A DNA stretch of 64,000 nucleotides. It comes from Eledone cirrhosa. Its lineage: Eukaryota. A program made the position numbers and the translations under genes. The stretch is from the NCBI GenBank assembly GCA_964016885.1, contig OZ024740.1:382974001-383038000 (forward strand), given 5' to 3'. Positions 2,146 to 54,564 of the stretch are shown piece after piece (within the stretch, counting starts at the first letter, position 1; each line of letters begins with the position of its first letter). The notes under the pieces were generated by a model that was given only the letters and a program-made list of their open reading frames with translations, was not told where the DNA came from and searched no databases.

Positions 2146-2671
2146 AAAGCAAGACGGAGACTTAAACATACCTTCTGGTGTCCGATAACGTATTTTGGTG
2201 TTTTGAAAGACTCTGCCAGATACGTTATATTATTAATTTATGACCAGACAAACATACAATTTCTGCAGTCGATCAAATTATTATATCAGATAAGAAGTAC
2301 ACCTTTTAGTTCTGTAATCTGGCTAGGAAGTAAAGTAGCAGATATTAAAATGCTAGGACTCGGGGAGAAGGGGATTATATATTTAATGACATGGTGTGCG
2401 TATATGCGAATGTTATACTAGGTTTGTGTAGATGTATGTGTTTGTACATGTTGTTTAGTCACTGATCTGGTCTGAAAAAAAAAATGGCCTTATCAATGAC
2501 CTTGTCAAGCAACGGAATACACCCCATTCTATGTGTGATTTCGGCAGATTTCTTCCAGAGAAAGAGAGAGGCGGAGAAAGTGCGAAAGAGATGTACAAAA
2601 AGCATCAATCTCAAAAGGATGAAATACATTTTTTAGCTCGTCGAGAATTGAACTCAGAACACCAAAACACT

Positions 2672-3096
2672 TGTAGTAACTATGGCGACAGTGTATTGAC
2701 TATAGCAACGCAGTGTCCCCACCTGTGGGTAACACAACAAAATAACAAATTACTTCCCTTATCTCGGCGTTCTCTAAAAGAAGAGACGCCAATGTAAAAC
2801 TCAAGAGATTTGGTTTTCAATTCCAGACGCCTTTGTCCTGCCACGTGGACGTACTTTGTAAAAACGCCTGTTTTTGACCAAGACATTTTCATATCTCTTC
2901 TTGAGTGTAAGAATTAAGCCATTACCGTTTAGCTAGCAGGGTATGTCCTTTGAATGTAATTATTATGTCATGTTTTATTAAATGAATCATTTAATAAAAG
3001 ATTAATCTTGTTATCGAAAGCCCTTCTGTTTTAATTAATAATCTTAGAGAGATGAGATGTCGTTCACACACCTGGACGATATATCATTTTTCTTTA
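2672..3096 (+). repeat. 5' LTR
   Basis: Starts TGTAGTAAC and ends TCTTTA. Direct repeat of 8159-8583 with about 17 substitutions by eye. Contains AATAAA near 2992. Confidence 0.95.
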
Positions 3097-3097
3097 T

Positions 3098-3110
3098 TGG
3101 TGACCCCGAC
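3098..3110 (+). promoter_or_regulatory. Primer-binding site complementary to the 3' end of tRNA-Trp
   Basis: TGGTGACCCCGAC, 1 nt after the 5' LTR. It is the reverse complement of ...GUCGGGGUCACCA, the metazoan tRNA-Trp 3' end. Confidence 0.88.
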
Positions 3111-3361
3111 TAAGAACAACTTTAAAATTCTTCTGTATTGCTGAATTGTATCTCCTTCTGACCTGCCTTGCAAGCATAGTTAGATAAAAACCCCCAAAAA
3201 TTATTACAGCTCAGCCAGCGTTTTATCAACAACGATATTTATTTTATGTACAAAGTGTGCGACGCTGCACAAATATATATGGAATTCACCCCCTTGTTGT
3301 TTGGTATCTTGTCTTTGAGTGAACGATATTTCTCCTTTTGCATTAACTTCTCTCTTTAAAG

Positions 3362-3392
<31 letters not shown>

Positions 3393-3701
3393 TTCTCTGG
3401 ATATACAATGTTGCTTTCAACCTTCTGTTAAAATAACAAAATGGAGACTCAAACATTTTGTTTTCCCGCGTACAGCTTGTCGTCTTCAATCCCAGCCATC
3501 TGATTGGCTGCATCGTGCCACATGACGGCTTCTTCATCACAAACACATTTTTCAATCAGCCATCTTGGGATTTTCTTACCAAATAATTTTCATTGAAAAT
3601 AATTTTTTTTATTATGCAAATTTTATTTTGGCCGGCGAGAATTTTCCAAAAGAATTTCAGTTGAATTCGCGTGAATAAAATTCATCAAATCTTTGGGCAT
3701 C

Positions 3702-4570
3702 ATGAATCAACATCATTTGCCGTCCTTCGCAGGCGACATCAAGTTATGGTTTTTGCAGCTTAAATGCTATTTTGATTTAACCAAAACCAAACAACAGCAT
3801 AAACTGAAGGTTCTAGTGAGTGGCTTGCCTGTGTCGTTGGCATATTCCGTGAAGGATGTGGTAACCAATTTAGCCGCGGACGTTGCTTATGGCTCGTTGA
3901 AAGGGGAAATTATTCGGAGGAATACCAAGTCAGCGGAAAGTCGTTTTCGGGAATCGTTAGATGATGCGCAAATGGGTGACAGGACGCCAAGCTCCTATTT
4001 GCGACATCTGCGGAAATTGAGCGACTCCCAGGGGATGGACACCCCATTCCTCAAACAACTATTTTTCTCTCGTTTACCGCCAAGTGCGCAGATGGTCTTG
4101 GTCAATAATTTGGAGAGGGAATCGTTAGATCAACTTGCCGCATCCGCGGATAGAATACTAGCGGTGGACTCTAACAGCAGTCGGCATAATCCTTGTGTGG
4201 CTTCTTCTTCTGTTCCCCCACGCAATTCTTCTGTGGCGACAGCAAACTGTTGGAGATGATCGAAGCGCTCACACAAAAAGTGGAGTATTTGACCGTACAA
4301 CACAGAGAGCCTTCTCAACGTTTGAGGTACCGTTCACCTCCGTCTGCTATTCCTCGAAGCCCCTACGAGTACCGTTCGCCTCCGTCTGCTATTCCTCGAA
4401 ACCGCTACGAGTACCGTTCGCCGCCGTCTTATATTCATCACCAGCACTACAACGCAGACAACAATAATTCTTCGTTTTGTTGGTATCATGCTAACTTCGG
4501 CAGTAGGGCACAACGTTGTCGCACGCCCTGTAATTACAAGAGATCGGAAAACGCAAAGCAGAGCCACTAG
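3702..4570 (+). pseudogene. gag: gag (one frameshift near 4.2 kb)
   Basis: ORFs 3693-4259 and 4193-4570 together give LPSF..D..LWF.QL, MGDRTPS.YLR.LR and the C-terminal CWYHANFGSRAQRCRTPC (CHCC motif). Confidence 0.88.
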
Positions 4571-7500
4571 GGACGTCTAGTGAACTCTGGGAAAATCGAC
4601 CGAACCGCCATCTTTTTGTATACGACCTGCGGTCGAAAAACATTTTCCTTGTCGATACTGGCGCGTCGATGAGTATTTGGCCAGTCAGTTATCTCAAAAA
4701 ACCCCATCTGAATCAAATATAAATTTACGAGCACTCAACCACACGGCCATTCGAACGTACGGGCAAATTTCGCTTCCTCTTCGGTTAAAAAATTTGCGTC
4801 GTGAATTGAAGTGGAAGTTTACTATCGCCGACTAGCCATACGCCATTTTGGGACGGATTTTCTCCAACATTTTTCCTTGTCGATTGACATCCGCAGACAA
4901 CGACTTTTTGATGCTAATACAGGCCTATCGTTCGAGGATACAAAGCCGGAGATCGCCACAGTAAGCCCTGCTTTTCTCTTGGCTGAAGTAGGCAACCAGT
5001 ATCACAGTTTGTTAAAATCATTCCCACAGCTGACGCAAGGAAGATTACGAATTGCTAGTCCGGATCATGTGATTGAACACTTTATATCCACTACAGGTCC
5101 ACCTGTTTTCTCACGTCCTTGAAGATTATCTGCAGAGAAGTTGAAAGCTGCACGGTCTGAATTCGACCACATGCTGGAATTAGGAATAATTCGGCGTTCC
5201 GCAAGTCCTTGGACATCGCCTCTATATATGGTACTTACATCTTCTGGTGATTGGAGACCGAGGGTCACTACCGACGCTTAAACGCGAATACTGTGCCTGA
5301 CCGTTATCCAATCCCGCATTTGCAGGATTTCGCTTCTTCATTACAAGGTTGCACAATTTTTTCTAAGCTCGATTTGATTCGTGCTTATAATCAGATTCCG
5401 GTTAAAAAGGAGGATATTCCGAAGACTGCTATTGCCACTCCTTTTGGATCTTTCGAGTTCCTTATTATGCCTTTCGGCCTAAGAAATGCGGCTAGTACCT
5501 TCCAACGATTTATGGATGATGTTACTCGGGGCCTGGATTTTGTGTATACGTATATCGATGATGTGTTGATTGCTAGTTCTTCTCCTGAGCAGCATTCAAA
5601 GCATCTGGATCTCGTATTGCGTCGTTTACAGAGATATAAGGTTCGTATTAATGCTTCCAAGTGTGTTTTCAGCTCGACTTCACTAACATGTTTAGGCCAT
5701 CTGATTGACGCCGATGGTATTCGACCTCTTCCTGAGAAGGTTAAGGCAGTATCGGATTTGCCTCCGCCAAGTTCACTGCGACAATGGCGTCAATTCTTAG
5801 GCCTTGTAAATTTTTATAGGCGATTCGTACCTAATTGTTCCAACTTGCTGTTCTCGTTGACAGAAATTTTTAAAAATTGCCGGCGTAAGAATATGGACAT
5901 TTCCTTAAATAAAACGCAGCTTGAGGATTTTAAAAAAGTGAAAAAGGCGTTAGCGAGGGCGTCTTTGCCTGCCGACCCAGTACCCAACGCCGAGCTATCG
6001 CTCTGTGTTGATGCGTCGGATACCGCCGTGGGTGCAACAGAAGTGCGATGGTTTACAACAACCACTGGAATTTTTTTCGAGAAAGCTAAAGCCTGCCGAA
6101 AATCGTTATAGTACTTTCGGGCGTGAGCTTTTAGCAATTTATTTATCTGTGAAACCTTTCTCCCATGTTCTGGACGGGAGAGCGTTCACTATTTTCACAG
6201 ATCACAAACCGTTGGTTTTCGCTTTAAGATCAAAATTTGACAAATATTTTCCTAGGGAAACTAGACATCTGGATTTTGTTTCCCAATACACCAATGATAT
6301 TCAACATATTCCGGGTGCTGTGAACACTGCGGCAGACGCCTTGTCTCGTCTCCCGATAGCTTTGATCTCGTCGTCTAACGATATAAATTTGCTTCAAATG
6401 GCCATTGACCAACCCTCGCTTGAATCATTGGATTGCACATCGCCGGAGTTCATTAACTGCAATATGAAATACCTTCCTTTAACAACCGCTGACGGACAGA
6501 TACTTTGTGATATCTCGTTGGACTCACCACGACCTCTCGTCCCAGTTGGTCATCGACGAACTGTATTTCTCGCTTTGCATGGCATTTCTCACCCAGGAGC
6601 TACAGCCTCGGTCAAACTCATAACAGCCAGATTTTTCTGGCCTGATATGAGACGTGACATTGCTGCTTGTTGCCGTTCCTGTGTCGCTTGCCAAAAGTCA
6701 AAAGTTCATAAGCACGTTAAAACTCCTCTCGGAACTTTCACCTGTCCTGATGCCAGATTTCGTCACGTTCATGTGGACATCGTCGGCCCGTGGCCGATTA
6801 GTCGTGGTTATTCGTATATTTTAACGATCGTTGACCGTTTTTCGCGTTGGCCTGAAGCCATCCCTATGACAGATATCACTGCTGAAACGACAGCGCGTAC
6901 TCTCGTATCTGCATGGATCGCTCGTTTTGGAGTACCAACCACAATAACAACAGACCGCTGTCGTCAATTTGAATCGAACCTCTTCCGTGAATTAACACAA
7001 ATTATTGGCGCTACTCGCATAAGAACCACGGCATATCATCCAGCATCAAACGGAATGGTGGAAAGATTTCACAGACAGCTTAAAGCCTATTTAAGGGCTT
7101 CAATGGACTCTTCACGTTGGAGTGAGTACCTACCTATTGTGTTGTTAGGTATGCGGTCGACAATAAAGGTGGACCTTGGGTTCTCCCCGGCCGAATTGAT
7201 TTATGGTACTCCTCTTGCGTTACCGGGGAAAATGCTTGCTCCTGTTGATCTTGCTTCGCAGGATCCCGCTTCCTACGTGTCCCGGCTTCATTCTTACTTC
7301 CAGGAGTTACCACCGATGGACACTAGGAAGCAAACTGTAAAAACTGCCGTCCCAAGGGATATTGCCTTGTGGACACATGATTTCGTTAGAGACGACGCTG
7401 TGAGACCCCCTCTCATACGGCCGTACTCTGGACCCTATCGTGTGCTTGCTCGTACAGAGAAACATTTCACAGTGGACATTATGGTGTCCAGGGAAACTAT

Positions 7501-7696
7501 TTCCGTTGATCACCTCAAACGAGCCAATCTGGACACTGACACAGTGACACTTGAACCACAAATGCCCCCTTCTTTTTCTTCGCCACATACACTTGTTTCT
7601 TCGCCCCCCCCCCCTCCACCAACATACAGAAATACGACCCGTTCAGGTCGAAGGGTGCATTGGCCCTGTAAGCTATGCAGTACTATAAACTTCTGA
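4546..7696 (+). pseudogene. pol: pol polyprotein (aspartic protease, RT, RNase H, integrase), several frameshifts and stops
   Basis: FLVDTGA near 4645, [23 protein letters not shown] at 5551, RNase H FTDHKPL, integrase H-H-C-C, VHVDIVGP/TTD/GMVERFH, and GPY (PYSGPYRV). Confidence 0.95.
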
Positions 7697-8158
7697 ATTG
7701 TATTCTTTTTTCTTGCAGTTATTTTTACTGTATATTGAATTTGTTGTTGCATTTTGTACCCTGACAGCCTTTGGTATTTTTAAGGCATATTATAATTTTT
7801 CATTGCATTTTGTAACCTTACTGCCTATGGCAGTTTCAATGCCTATCGTTTTTTTTTATCGTATTTGGGACCCTTACTGCGAATGGTATTTTTAATGCAT
7901 TTTGCATTTATTGCTGCATGTGTATAATTATTGCATTTGTTGTATAATTTTTGTGTAATGCTTGCATGCATTAACCTATTTCACCTCTATATTGTTCGTT
8001 TTGAAACCGGTTTCAACAACTTGTAAAGAGTACCTTGTAAGGCTTTGGCTTCATTGTTATATACTACAGGAATCTTTCTTGTACCAATTTACAACTTCTG
8101 GTTCCTACATGCTATCGTTTGTTTTACGATTTTTATTAAAAATCTGGTCGGAGGTGAT

Positions 8159-8583
8159 TGTAGTAACTATGGCGACAGTGTGTTGACTATAGCAACGCAG
8201 TGTCGCCACCTGTGGGTAACACAAAAAAATAGCGAATTACTTCCCTTATCTCGGCGTTCTCTAAATGAAGAGACGCCAATGTAAAACTCAAGAGATTTTG
8301 TTTTCAATTCCAGTCGCTTTTGTCCTGCAACGTGGACGTACTTTTTAAAAACGCCTGTTTTTGACCAAGACATTTTCATATCTCTTCTTGAATGTAAGAA
8401 TTAAGCCATTGCCGTTTAGCTTGCAGGGTATGTCCTATGAATGTAATTATTATGTCATGTTTTATTAAATGAATCATTTAATAAAAGATTAGCCTTGTTA
8501 TCGAAAGCCCTTCTGTTTTAATTAATAATCTTAGAGAGATGAGATGTCGTTCACACACCTGGACGATATATCATTTTTCTTTA
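8159..8583 (+). repeat. 3' LTR
   Basis: Direct repeat of 2672-3096, preceded by a degenerate purine-rich tract GGTCGGAGGTGA and followed by the TSD CACT. Confidence 0.95.
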
Positions 8584-10431: not shown

Positions 10432-10650
10432 GCACATATATATATATGACACTAAAAGAAAAAAAATCAATCTGTGAACGCAGAATAAATATTTAGGAAA
10501 ACGTTGCAATCGCAGGAAAACAGGAAGACGATACTTTGGTTTGTGAAGACGTTCCCTGGCAATGAACGGATAAATGCGAAGATCATATCGAGCCCTCTTT
10601 TGATTTCAGTCTTCATATTTATTATGATTACTATATATGTAATATATATA

Positions 10651-10693
<43 letters not shown>

Positions 10694-10697
<4 letters not shown>

Positions 10698-10887
10698 TTA
10701 ATATAGATGAGATTCTACAGGACTAGAACTGTTTCATTCATTAGAAATCATCAGGAATCTCTGATGATTTCTAATGAATGAAACAGTTCTAGTCCTGTAG
10801 AATCTCATCTATATTAAAACTGTTATACTCTGCTATGTATTGAGTACCTTACTTACTGTGGTTACCTCCGATTCAACCCGGAATAAC

Positions 10888-10888
<1 letters not shown>
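10694..10888. mobile_element. Penelope-like pLTR remnant with 61-bp perfect inverted duplication, between (TA)n tracts
   Basis: Arms 10694-10754 and 10761-10821 with a 6-nt spacer. Carries a hammerhead core. The GTATTGAGTAC tail motif is shared (inverted) with the neighbouring element at 10944-11150. Confidence 0.65.
10709..10761 (-). ncRNA. Type I hammerhead ribozyme
   Basis: Minus strand reads GAGAUUC-CUGAUGA-UUUC UAAU GAAU-GAAA-CAG UUCUAGUC CUG-UA-GAAUCUC. Stem I is 7 bp, the core is intact, stem III is ACAG/CUGU, and the cleavage triplet is GUA. Confidence 0.8.
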
Positions 10889-10943
<55 letters not shown>

Positions 10944-10945
<2 letters not shown>

Positions 10946-11145
10946 CAAAGGAAATGTGGTAAGGAACCAGATGGACCATAACGCACCAAAGTACTCAATA
11001 CTTAGTGTAGTAGAGTGGGTAATAGGAACAAGTATGACCCCGACGGCAGAGCTCAAGCCGTTTCGACGGCTAATTCTGGACAGAATTAGAGTCCAGAATT
11101 AGCCGTCGAAACGGCTTGAGCTTTGCCGTCAGGGTCATACTTGTT

Positions 11146-11150
<5 letters not shown>
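10944..11150. mobile_element. Second Penelope-like fold-back remnant with the 3' half of a hammerhead, between (TA)n tracts
   Basis: Inverted arms 11022-11081 and 11091-11150, containing GAAAC-GGC-loop-GCC-GTC. Confidence 0.55.
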
Positions 11151-25572: not shown

Positions 25573-26689
25573 CTGTGTGTGTGTGTGTCTGTGTGTGTAT
25601 GTAAAACGTAAACAGAAATAATAGTGCAAACGACACAGCACAATGCGAAATGCATTAGTTTAACGCTTGAAATAGTAGGAAAAGTGTTTGAACGTTTCTA
25701 ACACAACACACAGATATATATATAGTATATTTGATAATATACTGTATGTTTAACTGAAATAATTTTGAAGACCTTTCGCTATGAATTTTATAGTAATGAC
25801 TATGTTATTTAATTAATCTCGGCAAAAATAAAGGAGAATAATCGAGAGCCCAATGTCTGGCTCGTTAATGGTTATCAAGATTACTTACCCCTTCGCTTCT
25901 GCCGAGAATTATAGGAGCTGGATTCTTATAGAATTCCAGTAATGTTTAAGAGCTGATTAAACAGAGCGGTTGACGGTCCAGCAAAAATTAAATATTAGTA
26001 TTGGTGCTCTGAAATAGAGATGTACCTATGAATGTATGTGTAGTATATTTGATAATATTTTAATTAAACATTTTTTGAAGATATTTTGCCGAGAATAAGT
26101 AAGTAACATAGCAACTACTATGAAATTCATAGTGAATGGTCTTCAAAATGTTTTTTAATTAAACATACAGTTTATTATCAAATATAATATACATACATTC
26201 ATAGGTACATCGCTATTTCAGAGCACCAATACCTACATATATATATATTGGTAAACGGAATAGAAAATGCTGACAAATTGTTCACAGTGAAAAATAGTTT
26301 AATTAGGAATAAGTGAGAATTAGTAATTGTATTTCATTTTTGGTTTCAAGTTTTACCGGTTGCGCATTTCTAATGCTTTTCAAAAATAATTTTGAGATAG
26401 AGCGTCCGTGATGTTTGCTCTGATCTGATTAGTTTTGGGAATTCTACCTGTTTTTATGTTAAAAAAGTGGCTCCAGCGGTATTAAAATAAGTTTTGCGCC
26501 AATTCGTGTTGCAAAAATTCTTGTGGTCGAAACATTTTCGATTGGTCGGTAGAGGTCATGTGAATGTAAAAAATTGATTTTGCGCCAAATGTAGGTTTGC
26601 GTCGGCTGACTGAGAAATAACTCTTTCACGTTGGAATCCAACGTGCCCTAAAACTCAGTACCCAGGACCTTAGACACCCTAAAGTAAAT

Positions 26690-27310
26690 CAACCGAAACT
26701 AAAATCTCTTCCATACATCTCCACACACAACCCCCTCAACAATGAGGCCTTTGACACCATCCTCCAGAACATCCCTGTGTTGAAAAAGGACCATAGAATG
26801 AAACAAATCCTACGTACACACGATATCATAAAGAGCAAAAGACAATCTAAGTCAATGAAAAACATCCTAATACATGCCAAAATACTGCCAACCACAACAA
26901 CGAAACCCACAGTAAAAAGTTGCGATAGACCCAACTGTGGCATTTGCATCAACTTAATAGAGTGTTCGGAATTCTATTTCAAAGAAGGACAATGTTTTAT
27001 AGTAAAACACAATTTCACATGTGCATCGGAAAATCTAATATATGTATTAACTTGCTCAGGTTGTCGAGAACAATACATAGGCCAGACCAAAAACAGCCTC
27101 CGCCAACGCATGACTGTCCATAGATCCCAAATTAAAATACTGGAATACAGGAAAATACCTCTGAGTGAACACATTGATACCTGTGCCGCCCAAAATCATC
27201 CCAACTTCAGAATCTTTCCCCTCTACAAATTTAAAGATAATGCCACCCACACCCAGTGAATCAACAAGGAATCTTACTTTATTAAAAAATACGGACCCCG
27301 TCTAAACACT
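26690..27310 (+). pseudogene. Penelope GIY-YIG endonuclease, C-terminal part
   Basis: C-x4-C-x2-C (CDRPNCGIC), then FTCASENLIYVLTCSGCREQYIGQTKNSLRQRMTVHR..PLSEH. After a premature stop it continues KESYFIKKYGPRLN. Confidence 0.9.
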
Positions 27311-27547
27311 TCTCCCTAAGACGAACCCACAATATACACACGTCAACATACATACCTACATCAGCACACATCTCTACCCATAATATAAACACAATGACAT
27401 ACGTAAACACACATGTTCTATGGTGCAACACAAATATACACAAATTTGCATATCTTTGATGTCTATAGATATAAACGTGCCGACACACACACATACATAA
27501 ACGCACACATGCATTGCACACTGATGGGCACATACATTTTTAGTACA

Positions 27548-27980
27548 GGTATTCCAATACGGCAAAGCCTAATGAATTCCCCTTGCAGTACGTGCAATCT
27601 GGACACACTCCAGATACATATTTGTACACAGGTATACAATTTCTGGACACACTCCAGATACATGTGTACAATTTGTGCACAAGTATACAATTTGTGCACA
27701 GGTATACAATTTCTGGACACACTCCAGATACATATTTGTGCACGGGTATTCCAATACGGCAAGGCCTAACAATCTGGACACACTCCAGATACATATTTGT
27801 GCGCAGGTATACAATTTCTGGACACACTCCAGATACATGTGTACAGTTTGTGCACAAGTATACAATTTGTGCACAGGTATACAATTTCTGGACACACTCC
27901 AGATAATTATTTGTGCACAGGTATTCCAATACGGTAAGGCCTAATGGATCCCCCTTTAAGTACGTACAATCTGGACACAC
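27548..27980. repeat. Hierarchical minisatellite inside the PLE 3' region
   Basis: Six copies of the hairpin TCTGGA-CACAC-TCCAGA arranged as two 175-bp higher-order units, starting at 27595 and 27770. Confidence 0.9.
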
Positions 27981-28219
27981 ACACACACTCACACACACCT
28001 TGGTATTATACCAATACTATATATCATTTCACACCTTTTATTATTAAGGTTTTTGATGTTCTATTGAGAGAATCGATTTTACTGAAAATATCGAATAATG
28101 TACACCATTTTACCAGGAAAAAAATACTGGTCCACCCACCCACACACACACACACACATTCTCACGCACACATACACATATACACACACACACATACGCG
28201 TACATTAACATACAAAGAG

Positions 28220-28257
<38 letters not shown>

Positions 28258-28363
28258 CTCCGTATAAGACAAGAACTAAAAAATATCTTTTAACATGTTA
28301 AAATATCCCCCACACACCTACAGACACATTCCTACTGACCATCCCTCTGCCACGATTACTCTG

Positions 28364-28409
<46 letters not shown>

Positions 28410-28505
28410 TCGTCTTAATGGGCATTTGAACTGTCAACAGGCTGCGGTTCGCACACGCATCCCTGCTGACCTTTATCACAACAACGAACACTTTACTACT
28501 ACTAC

Positions 28506-28543
<38 letters not shown>

Positions 28544-28974
28544 TTGTGGTGAAAGAGTTATTTCTCAGTCAGCCGACACAAACCTACATTTGGCGCAAAA
28601 TCAATTTTTTACATTCACATGACCTCTACCGACCAATCGAAATTGTTTTGACCACAAGAATTTTTGCAACACGAATTGGCGCAAAACTTATTTTAATACC
28701 GCTGGAGCCACTTTTTTAACATAAAAACAGGTAGAATTCCCAAAACTAATCAGATCAGAGCAAACATCACGGACGCTCTATCTCAAAATTATTTTTGAAA
28801 AGCATTAGAAATGCGCAACCGGTAAAACTTGAAACCAAAACTGAATACTAGCCAATACAATTACTAATTCTCACTTATTCCTAATTAAACTATTTTTCAC
28901 TGTGAACAATTTGTCAGCATTTTCTATTCCGTTTACCAATATATAATAAATTGTGTGTTACGCCTCTATTCTTT

Positions 28975-32576: not shown

Positions 32577-32621
<45 letters not shown>

Positions 32622-32704
32622 ATAATAATAAATTTGAAGACTAAAATCCAAAGAGGGCTAGATAAGGATAAATATATATCAAATATATAAGAACCGTAGA
32701 GCAA

Positions 32705-33047
32705 ATATTTATTAAAATAACAGATTAAAGTTTAAGCAAAGAATCACTGCTTTCACCCTTAACGGGATCTTCTGAAACTAACAAAGTCAATCTGTAAACG
32801 CAGAAATGGATATTTCAAAAAACGTTGCAACCGGAGGAAGACAGGAAGACGATACTTTGGTTCGTGGAAACGTTCGCTGGCAAAGAACGGGAAAAAACGA
32901 ATATAATACGTCATTAATGACGTATTATATTGCAACGTTTTTTGAAATATCCACTTCTGCGTTTACAGATTGACTTTGTTAGTTTCAGAAGATCCCGTTA
33001 AGGGTGAAAGCAGCGATTATTTGCTTAAACTTTAATCTGTTATTTTA

Positions 33048-40760: not shown

Positions 40761-42258
40761 CATACAATTATTGCATTTAATTCAGCCTTCTGATTTCTAT
40801 CGCCCGCAAAAACTGCTAGCTGCTTCTGTGGAGATCAACTGACATGAAGAGTACACTGCCCAGGCTTCCTATCTAGCGCATGTTGGGGATCATATTCCCA
40901 CGTGTTAAGTAGTACCATGTTGTCTGCAATTGCTGCTGACTGATCCACCACGCGACAGAATTTATACAAATTCCAGCTCGATTTTGCACATTAAACATTT
41001 TAATGATTATTATAAACATGGGAAGAGTACGCATTGTTAGCGGACACCAACATACGCATTTAATGATTTTGATTTCCATTTATCCAAGCACGAATAATAA
41101 AGCATTCACTTAGAGACATCAAGGCAACAAGACCCTGACCACGATTTCAGATCCTTCTACAAGTTCCGTTTAAAGCGGTCGTAATCTTTATTTTGGTCTG
41201 CGAAACAGACATACAGCATTTGACAAGATATGCCACAGTATTAATTAATATTAAAGCAGCAGTGCTGAGTTATGGGCAAAACTACATTGTTTATCAGCTA
41301 GCTTATACTCGACAATATATTTACATGTCTTTTACCCGGGAAGCTTTATAAGGGGGTTTCTCTCTAATTAGAAACATTTTTGATGTGTCCCTTTTTGATA
41401 ATTGGGATCATCAGTCCCGATTGCCATGGATTTGGTGCATTCCATAGGTCAGGCACACGAGTCAGCATAAGGATACCTTTTTCTTAACAATTTTATATAT
41501 TTATACCTGTTTTAATCATTGGATTACTACGGTGTTAGCTGTGGTGAATTGTGTGGGAGAGATAGGGTAGTAGTCTACGAAACGCCAGTATTTAAAGAGA
41601 CTCAAGCTCATTTTTTTTTTACTATAGATAATACGCAAGTTTAATCTACCCGTGCGTATTGAGGCATCCAGATTTTGAAAGCCCAGCCACGAGAATGAAA
41701 TTTTCTGTGGATGTTAATGAAAATTATTCTATTTTATTTCCAGCTTTCAACATTTGATTTTAGACAAAATAAAGCTAAGTCCACTAATACATACATTAGT
41801 GTATAACAAAGGTCCCATTGTGTAGCTTTGTAATTATACATACACATCAATAGAACCATAGATACAGACGGGAAGAATGTAAAAGTCATTCTTACAATGG
41901 CGCTTACACATTGTACCCATGTAAAAGTCAATTAACCATATTCTTATTATATCTCAAACACGTTAAAAGAAATTAAGTGAATGAAATGTTTAAAACTAAG
42001 ATCATCACCGTGTCACAGTATTGATAACAATTATTCTCTCTCATATCCTTTTATTTCATAATGAAGCACACGGGCGAGACAATTGATTCCACTCAAAAGT
42101 CAAATGTTCGTATAAAATTTAATTAAAATGAGTTTTTTTTATTATTTAATTAAAGAAGCAACCGACAGTTTTTAAGATAATACAGTTAAATCAAACCCCT
42201 GAATATAATTATTATCCACTCATATCATAAATACACCCTCTCACAGACAGATATTTAG

Positions 42259-43401: not shown

Positions 43402-46400
43402 CTACAGCCGCATGGCCAGAGTAGGTCCATTCACACGGGACATTCTCGCCACATTCACCCCTCTTTCAGCAAATGTACTGGGGGGGGGGGGCACTTCTCT
43501 CTCCACCCTCACCTTCCTTTCCAAGTGAAACTTGAAAAAGTTGATGAGGGATTGGCTGAAGAGAAACGTATCTGTCTTCAGTCCTTTCAACCTCGTCCAC
43601 CATACAACCTCTTTCGCTACCGCCACCAGACAGAGGAAAATTGTCTGCCCTTCCTGGCCAAAAGAAGGCGGCGGGTCGATCTTCAGTATGGCCTGGGTTG
43701 ATAGCCGGATCCGTGCTACCCGCGACAACAGCTGTTCAACATAATTCCTCAATTCAGTGATGCACAGACACTGGACGAGTGCGTGCAGAACGGTCGCTCT
43801 GCGCGCATCTAGGGCAGGTCCGTCTGACAGCACTTACGTGCCTGTAGAGTTTATCCCGAACCGGCGGTGCCCCCCGGTAGCGCTGCCAAGCGAGGGATTT
43901 TTGGAAATTATCCATCGTACCCGACTAGAAAGTCCTCCGGTACAGACTGGTTAGTTCGACATCGTTGACTCCCAGAGCCTCTCCGATGCGTCGTCGCACT
44001 CTCCCACCACTAATCCTCTATAGAACTCGAGAGTGGAAGTTCCACTGACCGCATTGCCCGCCTGGTAGAGGGAAGTGAGTGCCTGGCAACATTCCAGATG
44101 CCAGTCACCCATTCTCGGTCTCTTATGATCCAGGACTGCAGCTCAGTCAAAGAAACGAGCTGCGGAAAGGCCCGTCTGACAAACGGCGACCACACCTGTT
44201 CACCGTTTAGGGAGAATATCTGGAGATGCCGCAGTCTCATCGCGTGCCTGCGCATCATTAGCCACGGCATGCCCAGCCCTCCGCGTAGAGGGTTCTGGCC
44301 GCAGATGGACCGCCTCACCAGCGGAACCTGGCCCCTCCACAAAAATTTGAAGAGGCGCCGCTCCAAGATGGCGAGGCGCGAACGGGGGCAAGGGACGACG
44401 GTCAGACGGTAGTAGATAACGGACGTGATGTGCGCGTCCGCCACCTCCGCCCGACCTTTCAGTGATAGCTTCATCCCAGCCCATTTCTGGCTGAGACTGG
44501 CTACCCTGCCCGTCACCTCGTCCCAATACTTATCCACCTGGAGGTCTGGCACGAACCAAACCCCTAGCAACTTTACCGGTCCGTCCGTCCAGCGCCTAAC
44601 GACGCTGTTGGACGGCATGGACTTGCCTCTCCAGGTGCCGAGTTGCAAGCCCACCGACTTTTCCGGGTCAAGTTTGGGTCCCGTCAACCTTTCACATTCC
44701 TCCAATAAGTTGCCGACTACCTCGATTTCTGAGGTGTCCGACACAATCACGGTGATGTCGTCAGCATAAGCCTACACAGCCTTTCCGCGCCTCGATTCGA
44801 GCGGGATGCCCTGCAACAGCTCCAGCTTCCACAGTAAAGGCTCGAGAGTCAATACGTACAGAAGGGAGGAGAGAGGGCACCCTTGGCGGACCGATCGGGA
44901 CACCAGAAACGGTTCCGAAAGGTGGCCATTCATTTTGACCATCGAGCAGTTGCCGCTGTGCATTGCAGAGATCCAGCTTCTGAAGACGGGGCCGAAGCCA
45001 ACCGCCTTGAGGACAGCCTCCAGGTACCGATGATCGACCCTATCGAATGCTTTCGATTGATCTAAATTGATCAGAGCCCCACCGAAGCCAGGTTTACACC
45101 CAACCCTCTCTATGATGTATCGCAGTAGGTGGAGGTTGTCGTGTATGGACCTGGTTGGAATTGCGCAAGTTTGCGCCTCCCCAACCAAATCCCCGACGAC
45201 AAGCGCCAACCTCTTCGCTAAAACCCTGGCCAAAATATTAAAATCTGTGTTGAGCAGTGTTATGGGCCTGAAATTGTCCAAGGATCCCTCTTGTTCTCGT
45301 CTTTCTTTATCAGCGTCACTACGCTCCGGCTCACAGAACTGGGAATACTCCCGTTTTGCTGCCAGTTGCAGTAGAGCGCTTCGAGGAGATTGGAGAACAA
45401 GTCTGGCATATTTACGTGACTTGCGCCTCATGCTGACGAAAAGGGCATCCTGAATCTCGGCTGAAGTAATTGGCCTTTCGCAGCGCCCAGCGTCAGCCGT
45501 CAAGAGTTGCGGCAAGCCATCGAAGTAGGGACTGAAGTCCGCCACATCCCCCGAACAACCGAGCAAAATGTTGGTGAAAGGCCTCACACATCCGCTTGGA
45601 ATCGCTCAGCTCGTGTCCGTCAAAGACCGAATCGTTGTTTTATTACCACGCGGGCCCATCGAACAGCTTTGGTTCCCTCGTTTCTCAGAGCACGCGCCTT
45701 AGCTCTGACAATGCAACCTTCGTGTTTCGCATTGAAGAAATGGTCTAATGCCATTCTCGCCGCTAGCACGTGAGTTGCAATGCCACTACCAATAGCCTCG
45801 TCTAACTTATCTACCAACTCCCCCTGCTTTCTATTTTTTCTAACGCTACTTCTTTGCTAATCTCTATCGACAATACTCTAATCTCTCTTTTGAGAGCCCC
45901 TCACCATCTATTGTTGATGACTCCCCCTGTCAACTCTTTCTTAACTAAATTGTTGACCTGGTCCCTGTAAGCCTTACGTGCCGGAAATGACATGTTTAGC
46001 TTCCAATAATCAGGTCCTAACCTACGCGTCTTATCTAGGTCGACCATACAGATCTAAAACTTGTGATCTGATAGGCGACCGTTTCAAAACGTGGACAGCT
46101 TACACTATTTTTATATTTTCCTAATGAATATCCTGTCTATATACGATCTAGATGACCCTATGCAGGTCCACACTGGCGCATTAGGGAACTCTAGTCGGTA
46201 CCTGTCAGACAGTTGTAACTGGCTTATTAGATTCTTGGGGCTTTTGCACCCCCCGCTCCTATCGGATACTCCCACACAGTCCCAGCGTGCGTCTAAGATG
46301 CCGTTCCAGTCTCCCGCTAACAGTAAAGGGCGAGACTTTCCCAGAAAGGCTTCCAAGCGTCTAAAGAAGACGGGCCGTCCTGCCCCAGTCTAAAGGCACC

Positions 46401-46709
46401 CCCTTCGATATTGTTCACGTCCAGGACTACCAACTTCCCGTCCGGGTCCCTGAAGATCGACCTTACCTCGAGATCCTGGCCTTTCCTAAACAGCACTGCC
46501 ACCCCGCCTCCCATTCCCGGCCGGATAACAGATGCAAATATCTGATAGTCATTAAAAATGGGGGCTAGTGCGCGCGTGTCGGAAATCCTGGTCTCGCTGA
46601 CGGCAATCACATCCATTTCTAGAGACCTGAGGTCGTTGAGCAGGTAACTCGGCTTCCAGGACGATCCCAGGTCTCGAATATTTAAACATCCTACTCTTAA
46701 TACAGTCAT
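43402..46709 (-). pseudogene. ORF2 of element A (APE endonuclease, RT)
   Basis: GCLNIR, VSETR, GGGVAVL, AGDWN, SYIDR, NFRPITLLNTD, LDQSKAFDRVDH, SVRQGCPLS, AYADD, GGLGMP. Multiple frameshifts. Confidence 0.92.
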
Positions 46710-46741
46710 GTTGGCAGGTTAAAAAGAGAGAGATGAAAGGT

Positions 46742-48704
46742 TTACTTACCTTCCGGGCTCTTGTGAAGGTCGGGTTGTTCGACCTCCATAGTTGGTGGGG
46801 TTTCTTTTGGGAACCCCTTTAAAAGTCTTGAAGTTGGTTTTACGTTGGGGGTTCCCACGTCCCGAGGAAAGCTGTCTCCTATTTCTTTGTATAATTCGAT
46901 CGACATTCGCACCAGAACCAAATCTTCCGGCACGCGAAATGTGATCGATTTAAAAATGTCCCCCTTTTTTTGTATATTTTCACTTCGTGCTACGAGGGCC
47001 GTCAGTTCCTTGTTGGCCCTCCTGACGAGCACGAAGTTTTGTATGTTTTGTTGGTGTGATTTATTTGTTTGCATGGCCGTGGTGGTGATGATGTTGGTGG
47101 TGTTGTTTCGGTTGTGTCTGTGTTTGTTGTGAGTGCGGTGTCTGTGGTTTCAGATGTTTGTGTGCATATTTGTTCTTGCGTCCGTTTAGGTTGTTTGCGT
47201 TTGGGGGATTCTGGTGATGGTGATGGTAGTGTTGATGTTGGTCTTATTGGAGAGATGTTTGCTGGGTGGTGTCTGCTTTTTTATTGGGGGTGATTTTGTG
47301 CTTTGTTGAGTTGTTTTTTTTTCTTTTTGTGTTTCCTTTTTTGTATTTTGGGGTATTTTGGTTTTCCCTCATCTTCACTACTGGTAGATGAGGGGTCTGT
47401 GTCTGTAAGTGTGTCTGTATGTATGTTTATGGTTTTATTGGTGCGTGTACTTTTGCGGGGAGGGGGAATTTGATGGCTTTCCTCGTTTCCCCCCTGGGTG
47501 GTCAATGTTGGTGGTGGTCTTTCTATTGGTGTTGTTGTTTGTGGTTTTGCTGGTGCTGGTGTTGGTTGTGGTCCTCGCACCGGCGTCGGAAACAGTGGAG
47601 CCTTTCGACCCCTTGCCTCTTTCAGCAGTTGAGGGCAGAAGGCTCGCACATGGGTTTTTCCCCACAAACAAAACACTGCCATTGTTTTGACTTCGGTCAT
47701 AATGTGAATGACCGTCCCATTCTGAAGGCAGATGTGGTCCAGGATTGTCTTCACATTCTCGGGCCTGATTTGGAGAAGGAAGTCCAGGCCAACCCCGGAC
47801 CAGTCCTCTCTGGCCGTTCTGTTCACTTCTATAGGGACGGTTTCCGTCCCCTCCACAATCACACATCGCAGAAGACCACATGTCATGTCCTGGTGGGATT
47901 CTGGGAAAGCGGAGACGGGCCGTTCTTTTATCCATGTGGGAGGGGTACATTATGACCTTGATGATTTTGCAAGGAGACATAGCGTGTTTGATAGCGAGGG
48001 CTTCTGACTTGAACAGCACTGAAATGGTGCCGTACTGTCTGCCCCTCTCTATGAATTCGGTGTCTTCTATGATGCCTCTCAGCGCGACTTCGACATCTTC
48101 TTGTGGGATTAAAGGTGCCCTTTTGGTTTGTGCTGAGATGCATCTATAATGCACCGTTCTGCGCCCACTGCCTCAATAGCTTCTACTGTGACAGTTAAGT
48201 TGGCCCAGGTTTGCTCTTGCTTGATGAACTTCCATGCCTGGGTCAACTTTTCATCTTTGTTTGAGAGGTCCATGTTGAAGCATGGCCTCTTTTTTGTGAA
48301 AGTGTTCTTCTTGTTTTCGTTGGGGTTGTCGTTGTCGTTGTTCTTGTTGGTGTTGTTGTTATCACTGTCGCTGTTATCATTGTTGTCTTTGTTGCCACCG
48401 TTGTTCTCGGTGCAGTTGGTATTGTTGCTGTTGGGGTTGTCGCTATTTGTTTTCATGTTAGTGGTGTTGATATTTTGGTTGCATTTGTCATTTTTTTTTT
48501 GTTATCTGTATTTTCGTTGTCGCTGCTACTGTCATCTTTTTCAAAATTAGAGTTCTTATTGGTATCATTGCTGCCTTTGTTTACATTGTTTGTGGTGGTG
48601 TTTGTGTTATCAATTTGTGTTAATTTCGCTGTAGCGCTCCTCTCAACTTCTACGTCGTTATCGCACGACAGCAGACATATCGCTGGCGGGCGTGGCTCAG
48701 CCAT
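46742..48704 (-). pseudogene. ORF1 of element A (RRM-like region, CCHC knuckle, low-complexity N/T/K tracts)
   Basis: ATG at 48704, RGRQYGTISVLF, QCFVCGEKT(H)VRAFC-like knuckle, and a C-terminus ending PEGK*. Frameshifted. Confidence 0.8.
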
Positions 48705-49182
48705 GTTTTTTTTTTCTCCGTAAATTATTTAACATGTAAAAAAAAGTTCAAATATTTGGGCCAAAAGGCCCAAATATTATACTTTCCCCTTCACAGGGCA
48801 AAGTCTAAGGGCTTATATCCCTTACACAACAAGAAATATTTAACAACAAATAATTTTAACAGGCAAATAAAGCGACTTACTGGGAGCGAGCCAAAAAGAC
48901 GTCCGAACAGACCAATAATAATAATAATAATAATACTTTCTTTATTAACCACAAGGGTTTAAAAGAAAGTAGACATTAAGGACAGTACAGGACAATACAG
49001 GACGGTACAAATGGGTATTGTTGCGTGTAAAAAAAAACGGAGGATTTAACAAAAAAAATAACAATGAAAAATTCCCCAACACGGGGGAGACTTGCGAGGG
49101 GTTGGTGGAGAAAGCCCATTAAAAAGCAACAGTGATCCTGACCACCAGGGCAAGTGCCCTCTCCCAGTTTTCCATCTTTAAT

Positions 49183-52100
49183 TTACAGACGCATACTCAG
49201 AGTAGGCCCATTCAGTCGGGCCATTCTTGCCTCTCTCACCCATCCTTCAACAACATTCTGGGAAGAGAGCACTTTCCTCTTTACCCTGATTTTCCTTTTC
49301 AAACGAAATTTGAAAAAGTTAATCAAGGCATCACCGAAGAGGTAAGTGCTCGTCTTCAGCCCTTTCAAACCTGTCCACTATACTTTCGCTTTCGCCATGG
49401 CCACCAGACAGATAAAAACATCCTGCCCTTCCCGGCTAAAGAATGAGGGCGGGTCAATCCTCACGATGGACTCAGCTGATAGCTGGATCCCTCCTACACA
49501 AGTCAGCAATGCTAGGACACTGGACGAGTGCGTGCAGGACGGTTTCGTCGTCCTGCGCGCATCTCGGACATGCCCGGCTGACGGCACCTCCATGCCTGTA
49601 GAGTTTATCCCGAACTGGCAAAGCTCCTCGGTAGCACTGCCAGGCCAGGGATTTCTGAAAGTTGTCCATAGGCCCCGGCCCGAAAGTTCTTCCGAAGAGA
49701 TTGGCTAGTTGATTTTCGTCGACGCCTAGGGTTTCCCCAAGTACGTTCACGCTCTTCCCTTCTACTAATCCTCTATAGAACACCAAGGTGGAGTTTCCAC
49801 CGATCACATTGCCCGATTGGTCGAGGGCTGTGAGCGCCTGAAGACATTCCAGTCTCCAAGCGCTCCCTCTCGGTTTCGCTTGACCCAGGACTCCAGCTCC
49901 GTCAAGGAGACGAGCTGGGTAAAGACGCGTCTAGCAAACGGCGACCACACCTGATCACAGTCGAGAAAGAGGTGGACATGTCGTAGCCTGAGCGCGTGTC
50001 TGCGCATCATCAGCCACGGTGCCCAGCCCTCCACGTAGCGGGTGTTGACATCAGATGGACCGCCTGCTCATCGGAGCGCGTCCCTTCCACAAGAAGCGAA
50101 AGAGCAAACGCTCCAGCGCAGTCAAGCGGGGCTTAGGACAAGGTACGACGGTCAGGCGGTAGTAGATGACGGACGCGATGTACGCGTTAGCCACCTCCGC
50201 TCGACCTTTCAGGGATAGCTTCCTCTCCGCCTATTTCTTGGTCAGAGAAGCCACCCTACTAGTCACCTCGTCCCAGTTTTTGTCCGTCTGGAGGTCCGGA
50301 CCGAACCAGACCACTAGTAATTTAACCGGTCCGTCCGTCCAGCGCCCGACGACGCTGTTGGACGACATGGACCTTCTTCTCCAGGTGCCGAGCTGCAGGC
50401 CCACTGACTTTTCCTGGTTGATCATTGCTCCTGTCACCGCTTCGTATTCTCTTAGTGTAGTGCAGATCGCCTCGATGTGTTTGGCGTTCGACACCACAAC
50501 GGAGACATAGTCTGCATATGCTGACACTGATCTTTCGCAACCTAGTTCGCGCGGGATTCCCCTCAACGTCTCCAGTTTGTGCAGTAATGGCTCGAGAGTC
50601 AATACGTACAAGAGGGACGAAAGGGGACATCCTAGCGGACCGAGCGCATGATGTTGAACGGTTCCGAAAGGTGACCGTTCACTCTCACCACAGAGCAGAT
50701 GTCGCTGTAAATGGCAGCGATCCAGTCTCTGAAGACGGGCACAAGGCCAGCCGCCCTCAGGACTGCCGTTAGGTAACGATGGTCGACACTCTCGAAAGCT
50801 TTCGACTGATTTAAATTGATCAAGGACCCACCCGTGCCAGGTTCCCTAGCTACCCTCTCTACGATATATCGCATGAGGTGGAGGTTGTCGTGGACGGATC
50901 TGTCTGCGCCTCTCCCACCTGGTAATTCTCCCGTTCTGTTTCCAGTTGCAGTAGACGTCCGCCAAGAGGCCTCCGAACAAGTCTGGCATCCGTACGTAAA
51001 GTTCATAGGGCGGACCATCCAAACCAGACGATTTACCCCTTGTGCAGCTAGTCATTGCCTCCCATACTTCGGCGGCTGTTATCGGCTTTTCGCAACACTC
51101 CGCCTCAGTGGCTGAGAGCCGCGGCAGTCCGTCGAGGTAGACACTAAAGTCCATCCATCGACACGGCCCGCCGCTGCCCCCGAACAGCTGAGCGAAGTGT
51201 CGCTGAAAAGCTTCACACATTTGCTCGTGATCGAGTAGCATGCGCTTGTCGTGGTCCACCAAAGACCGGATCGTGGCTGTGTTGCCACGACGCGCCTCCG
51301 CCACTCGGGCCCATTGGACGGCTTTCCTCCCCTCGTGTCTGAGAGCATGCACCCTAGCTCTGACAGCGCAGCCTTCGTGCTTTGCATTGAAGAATTGTTC
51401 AAAAACCAATTTCGCCGCAAGTACGTCTGTCGCGTTGCCTTTGCTAAGCGCCTCGTCTAATTGTCTAACTAATTCTCCCTCTACTCTATTTTTCACTATT
51501 GCTAAAACCTTACTAAACCTAATTGACTCTATTCTAATCGCTCTTTACAGAGCAAACCACCACTTGTTGTTGACGATGGCCCCCGTCAACGCCCGCTTAA
51601 CTAGTTCGCTAATCCGGTCTCTGTAGGGCTTGCCCGCTGGTAAGAACGCGTTTAGCTTCCAGTAGCCGGGTCCTTGTCTATGAAGCCTATCTAAGTCAAG
51701 CTCACAGATCACGAATTTGTGATCCGTGTAGCTGACTATCTTGAATTGTGGACAGTCTATGCTAGACCTATCTATTTCCCTACAAAATACTATATCTAGA
51801 TATGATCTGGATGACCCTATGCGGTTTGTCCAAGTCCACATTGGCACATTCGGGAAATCCAATCGGTACCTGTCAGGCAGTTCAAAATGCCTGAGTAGGT
51901 TCGTGAGGCTCTTGCACCCTTCTACCCTATCCTCTAATCCCGCACAGTGCCAGCGTGCATCTAAGAACCCGTTCCAGTCGCCCACTAACACTAAAGAGCG
52001 GGACGTTCAAAGAAAGGTCTCCAGACGCCGGAAGAAATCAGGCCGCCCTGCTCCTGTCCGGGCATAGACGGCCACTAGCCTGAAAGCTTGCTCGTCTCCG

Positions 52101-52381
52101 CTGGTCACATCCAGCACCACCAACTTACCTTCTGGGTCCAGGAAGATGGCCCGTATAGCGAGATCCAGACCTCTCCGAAAAAGCACAGCAAATCCTCCAC
52201 CCGATCCAGGTCGGCTGGGAGATGCGTACACATCGTAGCCGCCGAAGATCGGTGCGAAGGCCCGTGCTTCGGAGATCTGGTCTCGCTGATGGCCACTACA
52301 TCTATGTTTGGTGACCTGACGTCGTTGAGCAGGTGGCCCAAAACCACGCGCATTTATGCTGCCTATTCTGAGTGAGGTCAT
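49183..52381 (-). pseudogene. ORF2 of element B
   Basis: GSINARG, ISETR, VGDWN, SYLD, YTDHK, GPGYWKLN, GLDG, QSKAF, SAYADY, CPRC..ETVLHALVQC. Has an internal deletion near 50910. Confidence 0.92.
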
Positions 52382-52421
52382 GTTGAAATGGAGTGGAAAA
52401 GATGGGAAAGACCGCTTACCT

Positions 52422-54231: not shown

Positions 54232-54564
54232 ATTTAAATTATTGCTACTGCTTATATTTTTAGTGTTGGCAAACGTAGTAATATTTACAATGGTGGTGTC
54301 GGTGCGAGGTGTTAGTTTGTGGGGAAGGTTTTACTGTGAGTCGTGCATGATTTCTTTTAAAGAAAACTTTTGTTTGATAATTATAAAAGTTTAAATTTTG
54401 GCGCTCAAGGCCCCAATCTTTTTGAGTGTCCTTTTCCGAAAGCAAATGTTGTGAACTTATAAATAATTAACAACAAAAATTTTCCATAAATGACAATTTT
54501 AAACAAACGAAAACCACAAACATTTGCGGAGCTCACGATGATACGATTTCCTACATAGGTCGCC

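What the first reader, a model, noticed from the sequence alone, without database searches (positions are those of the whole stretch)
10694..10821. Complete hammerhead ribozyme hidden in a perfect 128-bp palindrome at a (TA)n tract
Seen on the minus strand (10761 to 10709): stem I GAGAUUC/GAAUCUC, core CUGAUGA, short stem II (UUC/GAA closed by an unusual U.U pair), GAAA, stem III ACAG/CUGU with a loop containing the palindrome CUAG, and a GUA cleavage site (predicted cut between 10716 and 10715). The plus strand carries a second core whose 5' stem-I strand is lost, because the inversion breakpoint falls at the ribozyme's 5' edge. Established: Penelope-like retroelements and retrozymes carry type I, often dimer-acting, hammerheads in their pLTRs, and PLEs often show inverted 5' truncations. 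Inference: this is a small non-autonomous ribozyme-bearing retroelement or PLE terminus that targets TA microsatellites. A read-through transcript would instead form a 61-bp dsRNA hairpin that masks the ribozyme, a possible ADAR or Dicer substrate.
Basis: partly seen in the sequence, partly recalled or inferred. Interest (0 to 1): 0.8.

Follow-up and report, generated by a model that had tools for sequence, protein, structure and literature searches.

The report
Penelope retroelement stub with hammerhead ribozyme
This hairpin-shaped repeat is a short, promoterless leftover of a Penelope-like jumping gene: two head-to-head copies of the element's ribozyme-bearing end, one of thousands like it in this genome, whose shared start point likely marks where the element's RNA begins.

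Summary
The hammerhead is real, and the structure is a known kind of insertion. The unit is 10694-10888, not 128 bp, and lies between (TA)n tracts. It has a tailless inverted arm and a sense arm with a 67-nt tail. Both arms match the terminal repeat (pLTR) of an autonomous Hydra-clade Penelope-like element without a mismatch. Four of eight long copies fetched have an intact 713-aa RT/GIY-YIG ORF. The palindrome is rebuilt at each insertion: junctions vary, subfamily variants are mirrored in both arms, and two chimeric pairs exist. This exact junction occurs 209 times, and 4,498 loci join within 14 nt of the core. The U·U pair is common in published Hydra-clade hammerheads.

Less ordinary: 5' ends pile up on the first bases of stem I. 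In the parent, those bases lie 30 nt downstream of a TATA box, on an initiator-like motif. These stubs are therefore likely run-off cDNAs of the RNA's 5' end (inferred; no RNA data). Noticed in passing: a satellite of about 377 kb made of 78-bp hammerhead-only units from the same family. Cleavage and editing are untested.

The parts
10632..10693 (.). (TA)n target tract, left side
   Evidence: TRF 10632-10694; sequence
10694..10760 (-). Tailless inverted arm, equal to parent pLTR positions +1..+67 (+1 = first base of stem I)
   Evidence: 0 mismatches in 67 against ORF-linked copy L131
10709..10761 (-). Type I hammerhead: 6-bp parental stem I plus one junction-made pair, core, 3-bp stem II over U·U, 4-bp stem III with palindromic loop, predicted cut 10716/10715
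   Evidence: covariation of stem I
10755..10760 (.). 6-nt spacer: the complement of the 5' strand of stem I, i.e. the point where the tailless cDNA ended
   Evidence: identical junction at 209 loci
10761..10888 (+). Tail-bearing sense arm, equal to parent pLTR positions +7..+134
   Evidence: 0 mismatches in 128 against L131
10761..10805 (+). Second hammerhead core lacking the 5' strand of stem I
10822..10888 (+).
   Evidence: 3' ends cluster at about +60/+67 and at the tail end
10889..10944 (.). (TA)28 tract, right side, shared with a neighbouring inverted insertion of another family

Best explanation
This is a short, promoterless insertion of a Hydra-clade Penelope-like retroelement, made of two head-to-head copies of the element's ribozyme-bearing terminal repeat, likely produced when two cDNAs ran off the 5' end of the element's RNA and were joined there.

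Shown: the identity of the parent (pLTR-ORF-pLTR, about 5 kb, 713-aa RT plus GIY-YIG), the (TA)n targets, the two 3' end points (about +60/+67 and +134), variable junctions, mirrored variants, and the pile-up of 5' ends at -1..+7.

Inferred: (1) CCAAT (-84), CACCC-type boxes (-66 to -58), TATA (-30) and an initiator-like motif act as a Pol II promoter starting RNA at +1/+2, the first bases of stem I. (2) The protein nicks both strands of a (TA)n target and primes at two internal sites downstream of the uncleaved ribozyme, as shown in vitro for the lizard element PAc. (3) When it does so on the copy of the repeat at the RNA's 5' end, both cDNAs run out of template after about 67 and 134 nt. (4) Their 3' ends pair through 0-2 bases and are extended, giving the palindrome. 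Usually both cDNAs come from the same RNA or source locus, rarely from two. The ribozyme here is a passenger: it has no promoter of its own and would be masked by the 61-bp hairpin in read-through RNA.

Confidence is about 0.95 for the identity and about 0.6 for the start-site run-off mechanism.
For: Parent: both arms match L131 with 0 mismatches. The pLTR runs through the tail into the ORF in many loci. The ORF is intact in 4 of 8 long copies fetched, each with a second pLTR hammerhead 4.8-5.7 kb downstream.

Copy counts (exact patterns, reversed-pattern controls 0 to 1 per strand): cleavage site plus tail 1,911, core 4,241, head-to-head junctions within 14 nt of the core 4,498, this junction 209.

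Rebuilt at each insertion: 38 of 38 strict pairs share the loop II and +53 variants in both arms, 13 of them non-majority. The same junction sits on five alleles. Either arm can be the longer one. L200 joins arms of two different families and L212 arms of two subfamilies.

5' edge: of 66 arms not selected on their junction, 23 end at -1..+2, 34 at -1..+7, 0 at -7..-2, 6 at -29..-8, 14 beyond -30 and 12 at +9..+22. By hand count, 41 of the first 100 matches listed end at -1..+7 and 2 at -2..-8 (these overlap the loci). Promoter motif positions are; the TATA box and its spacing are kept in a sister subfamily whose spacer has diverged (L041). ORF-length copies L132/L133 (a duplicated pair) and L134 begin at -2 and about -5. 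Five of six arms ending at +1 are preceded by G, as a copied cap would give.
Against: No RNA start was measured. TATA conservation rests on one diverged sister copy (L041); the 12 other sister-subfamily hammerheads printed had no upstream promoter. The commonest end is +2, not +1. Several G-preceded ends can be explained by the opposite arm. A stop caused by the ribozyme's own structure predicts the same edge. D. virilis Penelope has an internal, TATA-less promoter (PMC2377424, passages). With a looser pattern, 4 of 40 pairs differ between arms. L200 and L212 came from a pattern that favoured odd junctions and could be later recombinants. 57 of the 100 matches do continue upstream. The predicted probability of stem I in the +1..+63 RNA is only 0.02, so ribozyme activity is not shown.
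Confidence: 0.7

Rival explanations
1. Same element, but the shared 5' edge is caused by the ribozyme's structure. Once stem I has been copied, the cDNA end can snap back onto the complement of the other stem-I strand, or the bound RNP blocks the RT, so synthesis ends there wherever transcription starts.
For: The edge coincides with the stem-I boundary in family A and its sister subfamilies.
Against: A TATA box at -30, an initiator-like motif at +1, and CCAAT and CACCC boxes upstream would all be coincidence. Simple snap-back gives junctions that resume at about +52, while most junctions seen rejoin at +1..+7. More than half of the listed cores read through the edge.
Confidence: 0.2
2. The inversion forms by self-priming (fold-back) of a single strand, possibly on an antisense template, as proposed for rotifer Penelope elements, rather than by two cDNAs.
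For: It explains mirrored variants directly. It is proposed in PMC3846280 (passages).
Against: Here the tailless arm reaches further 5' (+1) than the tail-bearing arm (+7). In L044 and L047 the two arms hold different upstream parts. Chimeric pairs exist.
Confidence: 0.12
3. The 195-bp palindromic unit is itself a non-autonomous element (retrozyme- or MITE-like) that is amplified whole.
For: 209 loci share the exact junction, and the 40 best DNA matches are 98-100% identical.
Against: That junction is 209 of 4,498. It occurs on five alleles mirrored in both arms, one of which (+53T) also occurs in ORF-linked pLTRs. The unit has no promoter-like motif and is not tandem. Its left end varies between about +60 and +67.
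Confidence: 0.04
4. The 5' ends are products of ribozyme cleavage.
For: The motif is a complete hammerhead, and two copies co-fold as a double hammerhead through the CUAG loop.
Against: Cleavage would give ends at +46, and 0 of 19 tail-anchored arms begin there (small sample). Insertions carry the uncleaved site. In PAc, ribozyme mutants insert normally (PMC11167929, sections read).
Confidence: 0.02

Closest known systems
Hydra-clade Penelope-like elements (Craig et al. 2021, PMC8557442; section 11, passages and parts of the supplement read)
   Same: Single ORF with C-terminal GIY-YIG, DKT, CxCX5C, CxxC and CxH motifs and no CCHH; (TA)n targets; canonical hammerhead in the pLTR. Many listed Hydra hammerheads have the same U·U at the base of stem II. 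The inverted 5'-truncated copy and the one-sided tail are described for PLEs in general.
   Different: A different family from the published Hydra-1_Obim (different ribozyme and protein). About 5 kb because of a microsatellite-rich 3' UTR, against under 3 kb in general. RWR instead of RWK. The tail is 67 nt against 30-40 bp. Loop III has 8 nt, longer than in the listed Hydra motifs. A start-site pile-up is not mentioned in the passages I saw.
PAc, Poseidon of Anolis carolinensis (Frangieh et al. 2024, PMC11167929; parts 1-2 of 4 read)
   Same: Both target strands are nicked and extended, two internal RT start sites define the tail, the protein is a predicted dimer, uncleaved RNA is the substrate, and the ribozyme is active only with protein.
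   Different: A different clade. The PAc ORF starts inside the ribozyme, whereas here the ATG is at about +182. Run-off at a capped 5' end and head-to-head joining were not shown there.
PLE hammerheads (Cervera and de la Pena 2014, PMC4209133; parts 1-2 of 4 read)
   Same: Hammerheads lie in pLTRs and thousands of solo copies derive from truncated PLEs. Pairs on opposite strands 100-700 bp apart were already noted. Palindromic loop III and dimer action are described.
   Different: This motif has a full 4-bp stem III rather than a minimal one, and the two cores are only 6 nt apart.
Non-LTR retrozymes (PMC7229834, passages; bioRxiv 10.64898/2026.07.22.740005, parts 1-2 of 5)
   Same: Type I hammerhead derived from PLE pLTRs; a U·U at the base of helix II in axolotl HHR_Amex2. 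The tandem arrays on C1 and C28 fit the tandem definition.
   Different: The window copy is inverted and single, not tandem. No circular RNA was tested.

Membership tests
Hydra-clade PLE | Single ORF with RT and C-terminal GIY-YIG endonuclease | tested here: met
   713-aa ORF in L177, L180, L181 and L183. GIY-YIG Pfam E 0.0021, below the cut-off, and no RVT_1 match. RT motifs match the published Hydra alignment by eye. 1,407 unnamed homologues at E<=1e-30 among 8,000 candidates scored.
Hydra-clade PLE | DKG modified to DKT | tested here: met
   SDKT in the ORF
Hydra-clade PLE | N-terminal RWK motif | tested here: inconclusive
   RWR at the matching place
Hydra-clade PLE | CxCX5C linker, CxxC and CxH near the C-terminus, no CCHH | tested here: met
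   Read from the protein against the definitions
Hydra-clade PLE | Canonical hammerhead in the pLTR | tested here: met
   U·U form shared with many Hydra rows
Hydra-clade PLE | Insertion into (TA)n | tested here: met
   All 30 copies are followed by (TA)n; TA-rich tracts also follow the tail in the 30 loci, a few of them short or degenerate
Hydra-clade PLE | Generally shorter than 3 kb (a tendency, not a diagnostic) | tested here: not met
   4.8-5.7 kb between pLTR hammerheads
Hydra-clade PLE | Placement in an RT phylogeny with named Hydra references | not tested
PLE insertion unit | Inverted 5'-truncated copy with a tail on one side only | tested here: met
Type I hammerhead ribozyme | Core nucleotides and three stems | tested here: met
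   no Rfam match
Type I hammerhead ribozyme | Self-cleavage | not testable with these tools
   Only folding predictions: monomer marginal, dimer fold -21.4 kcal/mol
Non-LTR retrozyme | Two or more tandem units each with a hammerhead | tested here: not met
   The window copy is a single inverted pair. Related arrays on C1 and C28 do meet it.
Non-LTR retrozyme | Circular RNA monomers | not testable with these tools
   Needs RNA data
MITE / palindromic DNA element | Terminal inverted repeats at both ends and fixed length | tested here: not met
   The tail lies outside the inverted repeat, lengths and junctions vary, and the parent is an RT element

The most novel reading that the evidence does not exclude
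In this Penelope-like family transcription starts on the first base of the hammerhead. Internal priming on the RNA's own 5' repeat then yields 'strong-stop'-like cDNAs of 67 and 134 nt, which are capped off and joined head-to-head thousands of times. This would explain PLE inverted stubs, tails and junction palindromes with one mechanism, and would make PLEs a factory of near-perfect 60-bp hairpins, ready-made ADAR substrates, in a genome type known for heavy RNA editing. The same repeat has also seeded a satellite of about 377 kb that consists of nothing but the ribozyme.
Probability: 0.5. Interest if true: 0.62.

Novelty: new member of a known kind. Interest (0 to 1): 0.42.

Why it matters
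The locus itself is a dead insertion of a known architecture. Its value lies in the family. It is young, has intact ORFs and has thousands of nearly identical insertions with readable junctions. How PLE inverted repeats and tails form, and what the PLE hammerhead does, are called unresolved in PMC8557442 and PMC11167929. The pile-up of 5' ends at a TATA/initiator position gives a direct test by 5'-RACE and by an in vitro reaction. Thousands of 60-bp hairpins are a candidate source of double-stranded RNA: PMC5625713 (passages) reports exceptional dsRNA potential and hyper-editing in octopus, and Penelope as a massively edited repeat in lizard. That this genome is octopus-type is my inference from recalled repeat content and was not tested.

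Tried and rejected
Rfam: no hammerhead match at either threshold; the motif rests on my descriptor, covariation and the published Hydra table.

A DNA search with the tail alone returned nothing; the tool skips very common words, so this says nothing about rarity.

Expression: no RNA holder listed. Both read-laying runs used contigs of runs of unknown kind. They cannot show starts, cleavage or editing, and no listed piece bridged the window's junction. The summed contig depth steps up about 8-fold near +1 and falls about 1,000-fold after the tail, but the tool warns that this is no copy number, and sister subfamilies contribute.

A distal extension of stem I (about -13..-6 with +57..+64) is possible in family A but is not kept in the sister copy L041, so it is not claimed.

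The first ORF found between inverted pLTRs (L103, 969-aa frame) and another in L104/L105 belong to other PLE families nested in the microsatellite UTR. They were rejected as the parent.

The parent of neighbouring family B was not found: 0 matches to a core-plus-stem pattern, and 1 of 48 arms had a core-like word upstream, in unrelated flank.

The C28 satellite shows no sign of selection on the core (the scan was anchored on the core, so it is biased).

Literature: nine searches turned up no paper describing a PLE start-site pile-up, a hammerhead-only satellite of this unit length or this family. The library lacks most subscription journals and Repbase entries, I read papers only in part, and bioRxiv supplements were closed; the 2026 preprint reports retrozyme units down to 51 bp.

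Full report
Observation. The arms 10694-10754 and 10761-10821 are perfectly complementary around a 6-nt spacer, so 4 of 128 positions mismatch. The minus strand carries the type I hammerhead as described, with the predicted cut at 10716/10715. The plus strand carries a second core without its 5' stem-I strand. It was the only descriptor hit in the window with stem I of 4 bp or more; 2 of 30 shuffles gave one. Rfam does not detect it. The isolated fold is marginal, while the 61-bp hairpin is very stable at -100.2 kcal/mol.

A search with 10755-10888 returned 40 scored matches of 487 candidates at 98-100% identity, 39 of them with an adjoining inverted arm. In the 30 loci fetched, the sequence runs on through a 67-nt tail to (TA)n. 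Exact patterns give 1,911 copies of the cleavage site plus tail, 4,241 of the core, 4,498 head-to-head junctions within 14 nt of the core, sister subfamilies included, and 209 of this exact junction.

Parent. Thirty loci chosen without regard to junction show the classic PLE pattern: 5' truncation, a tailless inverted arm and variable junctions. Walking upstream led through a microsatellite-rich UTR to an RT/GIY-YIG ORF, and walking from the ORF start led back to the same pLTR. Four of eight long copies have an intact 713-aa ORF between two pLTR hammerheads 4.8-5.7 kb apart. The protein has DKT, RWR, CxCX5C, CxxC and CxH and lacks CCHH, the marks of the Hydra clade (PMC8557442). It is not the published Hydra-1_Obim. 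The window's arms equal parent +1..+67 and +7..+134 with no mismatch. The parent's stem I has 6 bp and covaries across sister subfamilies. The U·U under stem II occurs in many rows of the published Hydra hammerhead table and in axolotl HHR_Amex2.

The palindrome is rebuilt at each insertion. In 38 of 38 pairs passing a strict pattern, both arms share the loop II and +53 variants, 13 of them non-majority (this set includes the window's own copy and drops mutated arms). With a looser pattern 36 of 40 pairs agree. The identical junction sits on five alleles, one of which also occurs in ORF-linked pLTRs. Either arm can reach further 5', and two pairs join arms from different families or subfamilies (L200, L212). 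This fits two cDNAs primed on the two target strands from two internal start sites, as shown in vitro for PAc (PMC11167929), better than fold-back of one strand (PMC3846280) or amplification of a fixed palindrome.

The 5' edge. Of 66 arms not selected on their junction, 23 end at -1..+2 and 34 at -1..+7. None ends at -7..-2, 6 end at -29..-8, 14 go beyond -30 and 12 end at +9..+22. A hand count of the first 100 matches gives 41 ending at -1..+7, 2 at -2..-8 and 57 reaching the limit of view, 12 of those from one array; the two samples overlap. In the parent, TATAAATA lies at -30, an initiator-like YYANWYY (consensus recalled) spans +1, CACCC-type boxes lie at -66 to -58 and CCAAT at -84. One diverged sister copy keeps the TATA box at almost the same distance (L041). 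ORF-length copies L132/L133 and L134 begin at about the same place. Five of six arms ending at +1 are preceded by G, though several are ambiguous. None of 19 tail-anchored arms begins at the cleavage site. I infer that RNA starts on the first bases of the ribozyme and that the stubs are run-off copies of its 5' end. This is not shown: no RNA ends could be examined, and a stop caused by the ribozyme's structure predicts the same edge. Putative TATA/Inr motifs in pLTRs were noted in rotifers, while D. virilis Penelope has an internal promoter.

Function at this locus. The copy has none of the promoter-like motifs, and in read-through RNA both cores would be buried in the hairpin. The ribozyme is most likely a passenger. 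Two copies of the motif co-fold as a double hammerhead through the CUAG loop, as expected for PLE ribozymes. Opposite-strand hammerhead pairs from truncated PLEs were noted in 2014. The ADAR idea is reasonable but untested.

Side result. A joint seen in public contigs led to a satellite on C28 from about 30,496,750 to 30,873,720, with 78-bp units equal to pLTR -14..+63, i.e. the ribozyme alone. About 4,800 units are estimated from both ends and interior samples; the interior was not read whole. Its left end begins with an inverted tail-bearing arm. 84 of 257 sampled units keep the exact core and stems.

Earlier notes of this scan on other genomes reach the same reading for PLE stubs, and one reports the same 5' edge. 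These are unchecked AI notes and not independent evidence.

Verdict: a new member of a known kind. The locus is ordinary, and the family gives a good test of an open mechanistic question. Interest 0.42.

Noticed in passing
G000:C28 about 30,496,750-30,873,720 (L142-L161, L172-L176): Satellite of about 377 kb made of 78-bp units that are the family A hammerhead alone (-14..+63), about 4,800 units by estimate. It starts with an inverted tail-bearing arm. 84 of 257 sampled units keep the exact core and stems.
   Followed up: partly
G000:C1 83,679,700-83,692,300 (L109, L110): Twelve tandem units of about 1.08 kb, each with the promoter-like region, hammerhead and tail but no ORF, at the 3' end of an ORF-bearing copy; retrozyme-like.
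   Followed up: partly
window 10945-11150: Second (TA)n-flanked inverted insertion with a one-sided tail (family B), tail to tail with the finding. It is very common in the fetched loci and has a stereotyped 5' end. It resembles the 3' half of a hammerhead (GAAA, palindromic loop, GUC), but no CUGANGA core or parent was found.
   Followed up: partly
window 10450-10631 and 32619-33047: A third family of (TA)n-flanked inverted insertions with a one-sided tail. The 32.6-kb copy has a hammerhead-like stretch with CAGAAGA in place of CUGANGA. Three different PLE-type ends thus share the TA tracts between 10450 and 11210.
   Followed up: no
window 26333-28845: Decayed PLE: GIY-YIG remnant at 26621-27256 (Pfam E 0.00025, below the cut-off) between 297-bp inverted repeats.
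   Followed up: no
window 2671-8457: LTR-retrotransposon-like element: 95%-identical direct repeats around RT, RNase H and integrase frames.
   Followed up: no
window 41333-41414 (-): Isolated hammerhead-like core with long stem II and 4-bp stem III but no stem I pairing; may be decayed or chance.
   Followed up: no
L200:1420-1690 and L212:1430-1650: Chimeric inverted insertions whose two arms come from different families or subfamilies.
   Followed up: partly
L103, L104-L105: Other PLE families with long ORFs nested in the microsatellite-rich UTR of family A. Many further hammerhead-bearing repeat families appear as by-catch in the loci.
   Followed up: no
window 43987-54330 and 60856-63977: Several LINE-like copies (RT and AP-endonuclease remnants) in both orientations.
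   Followed up: no
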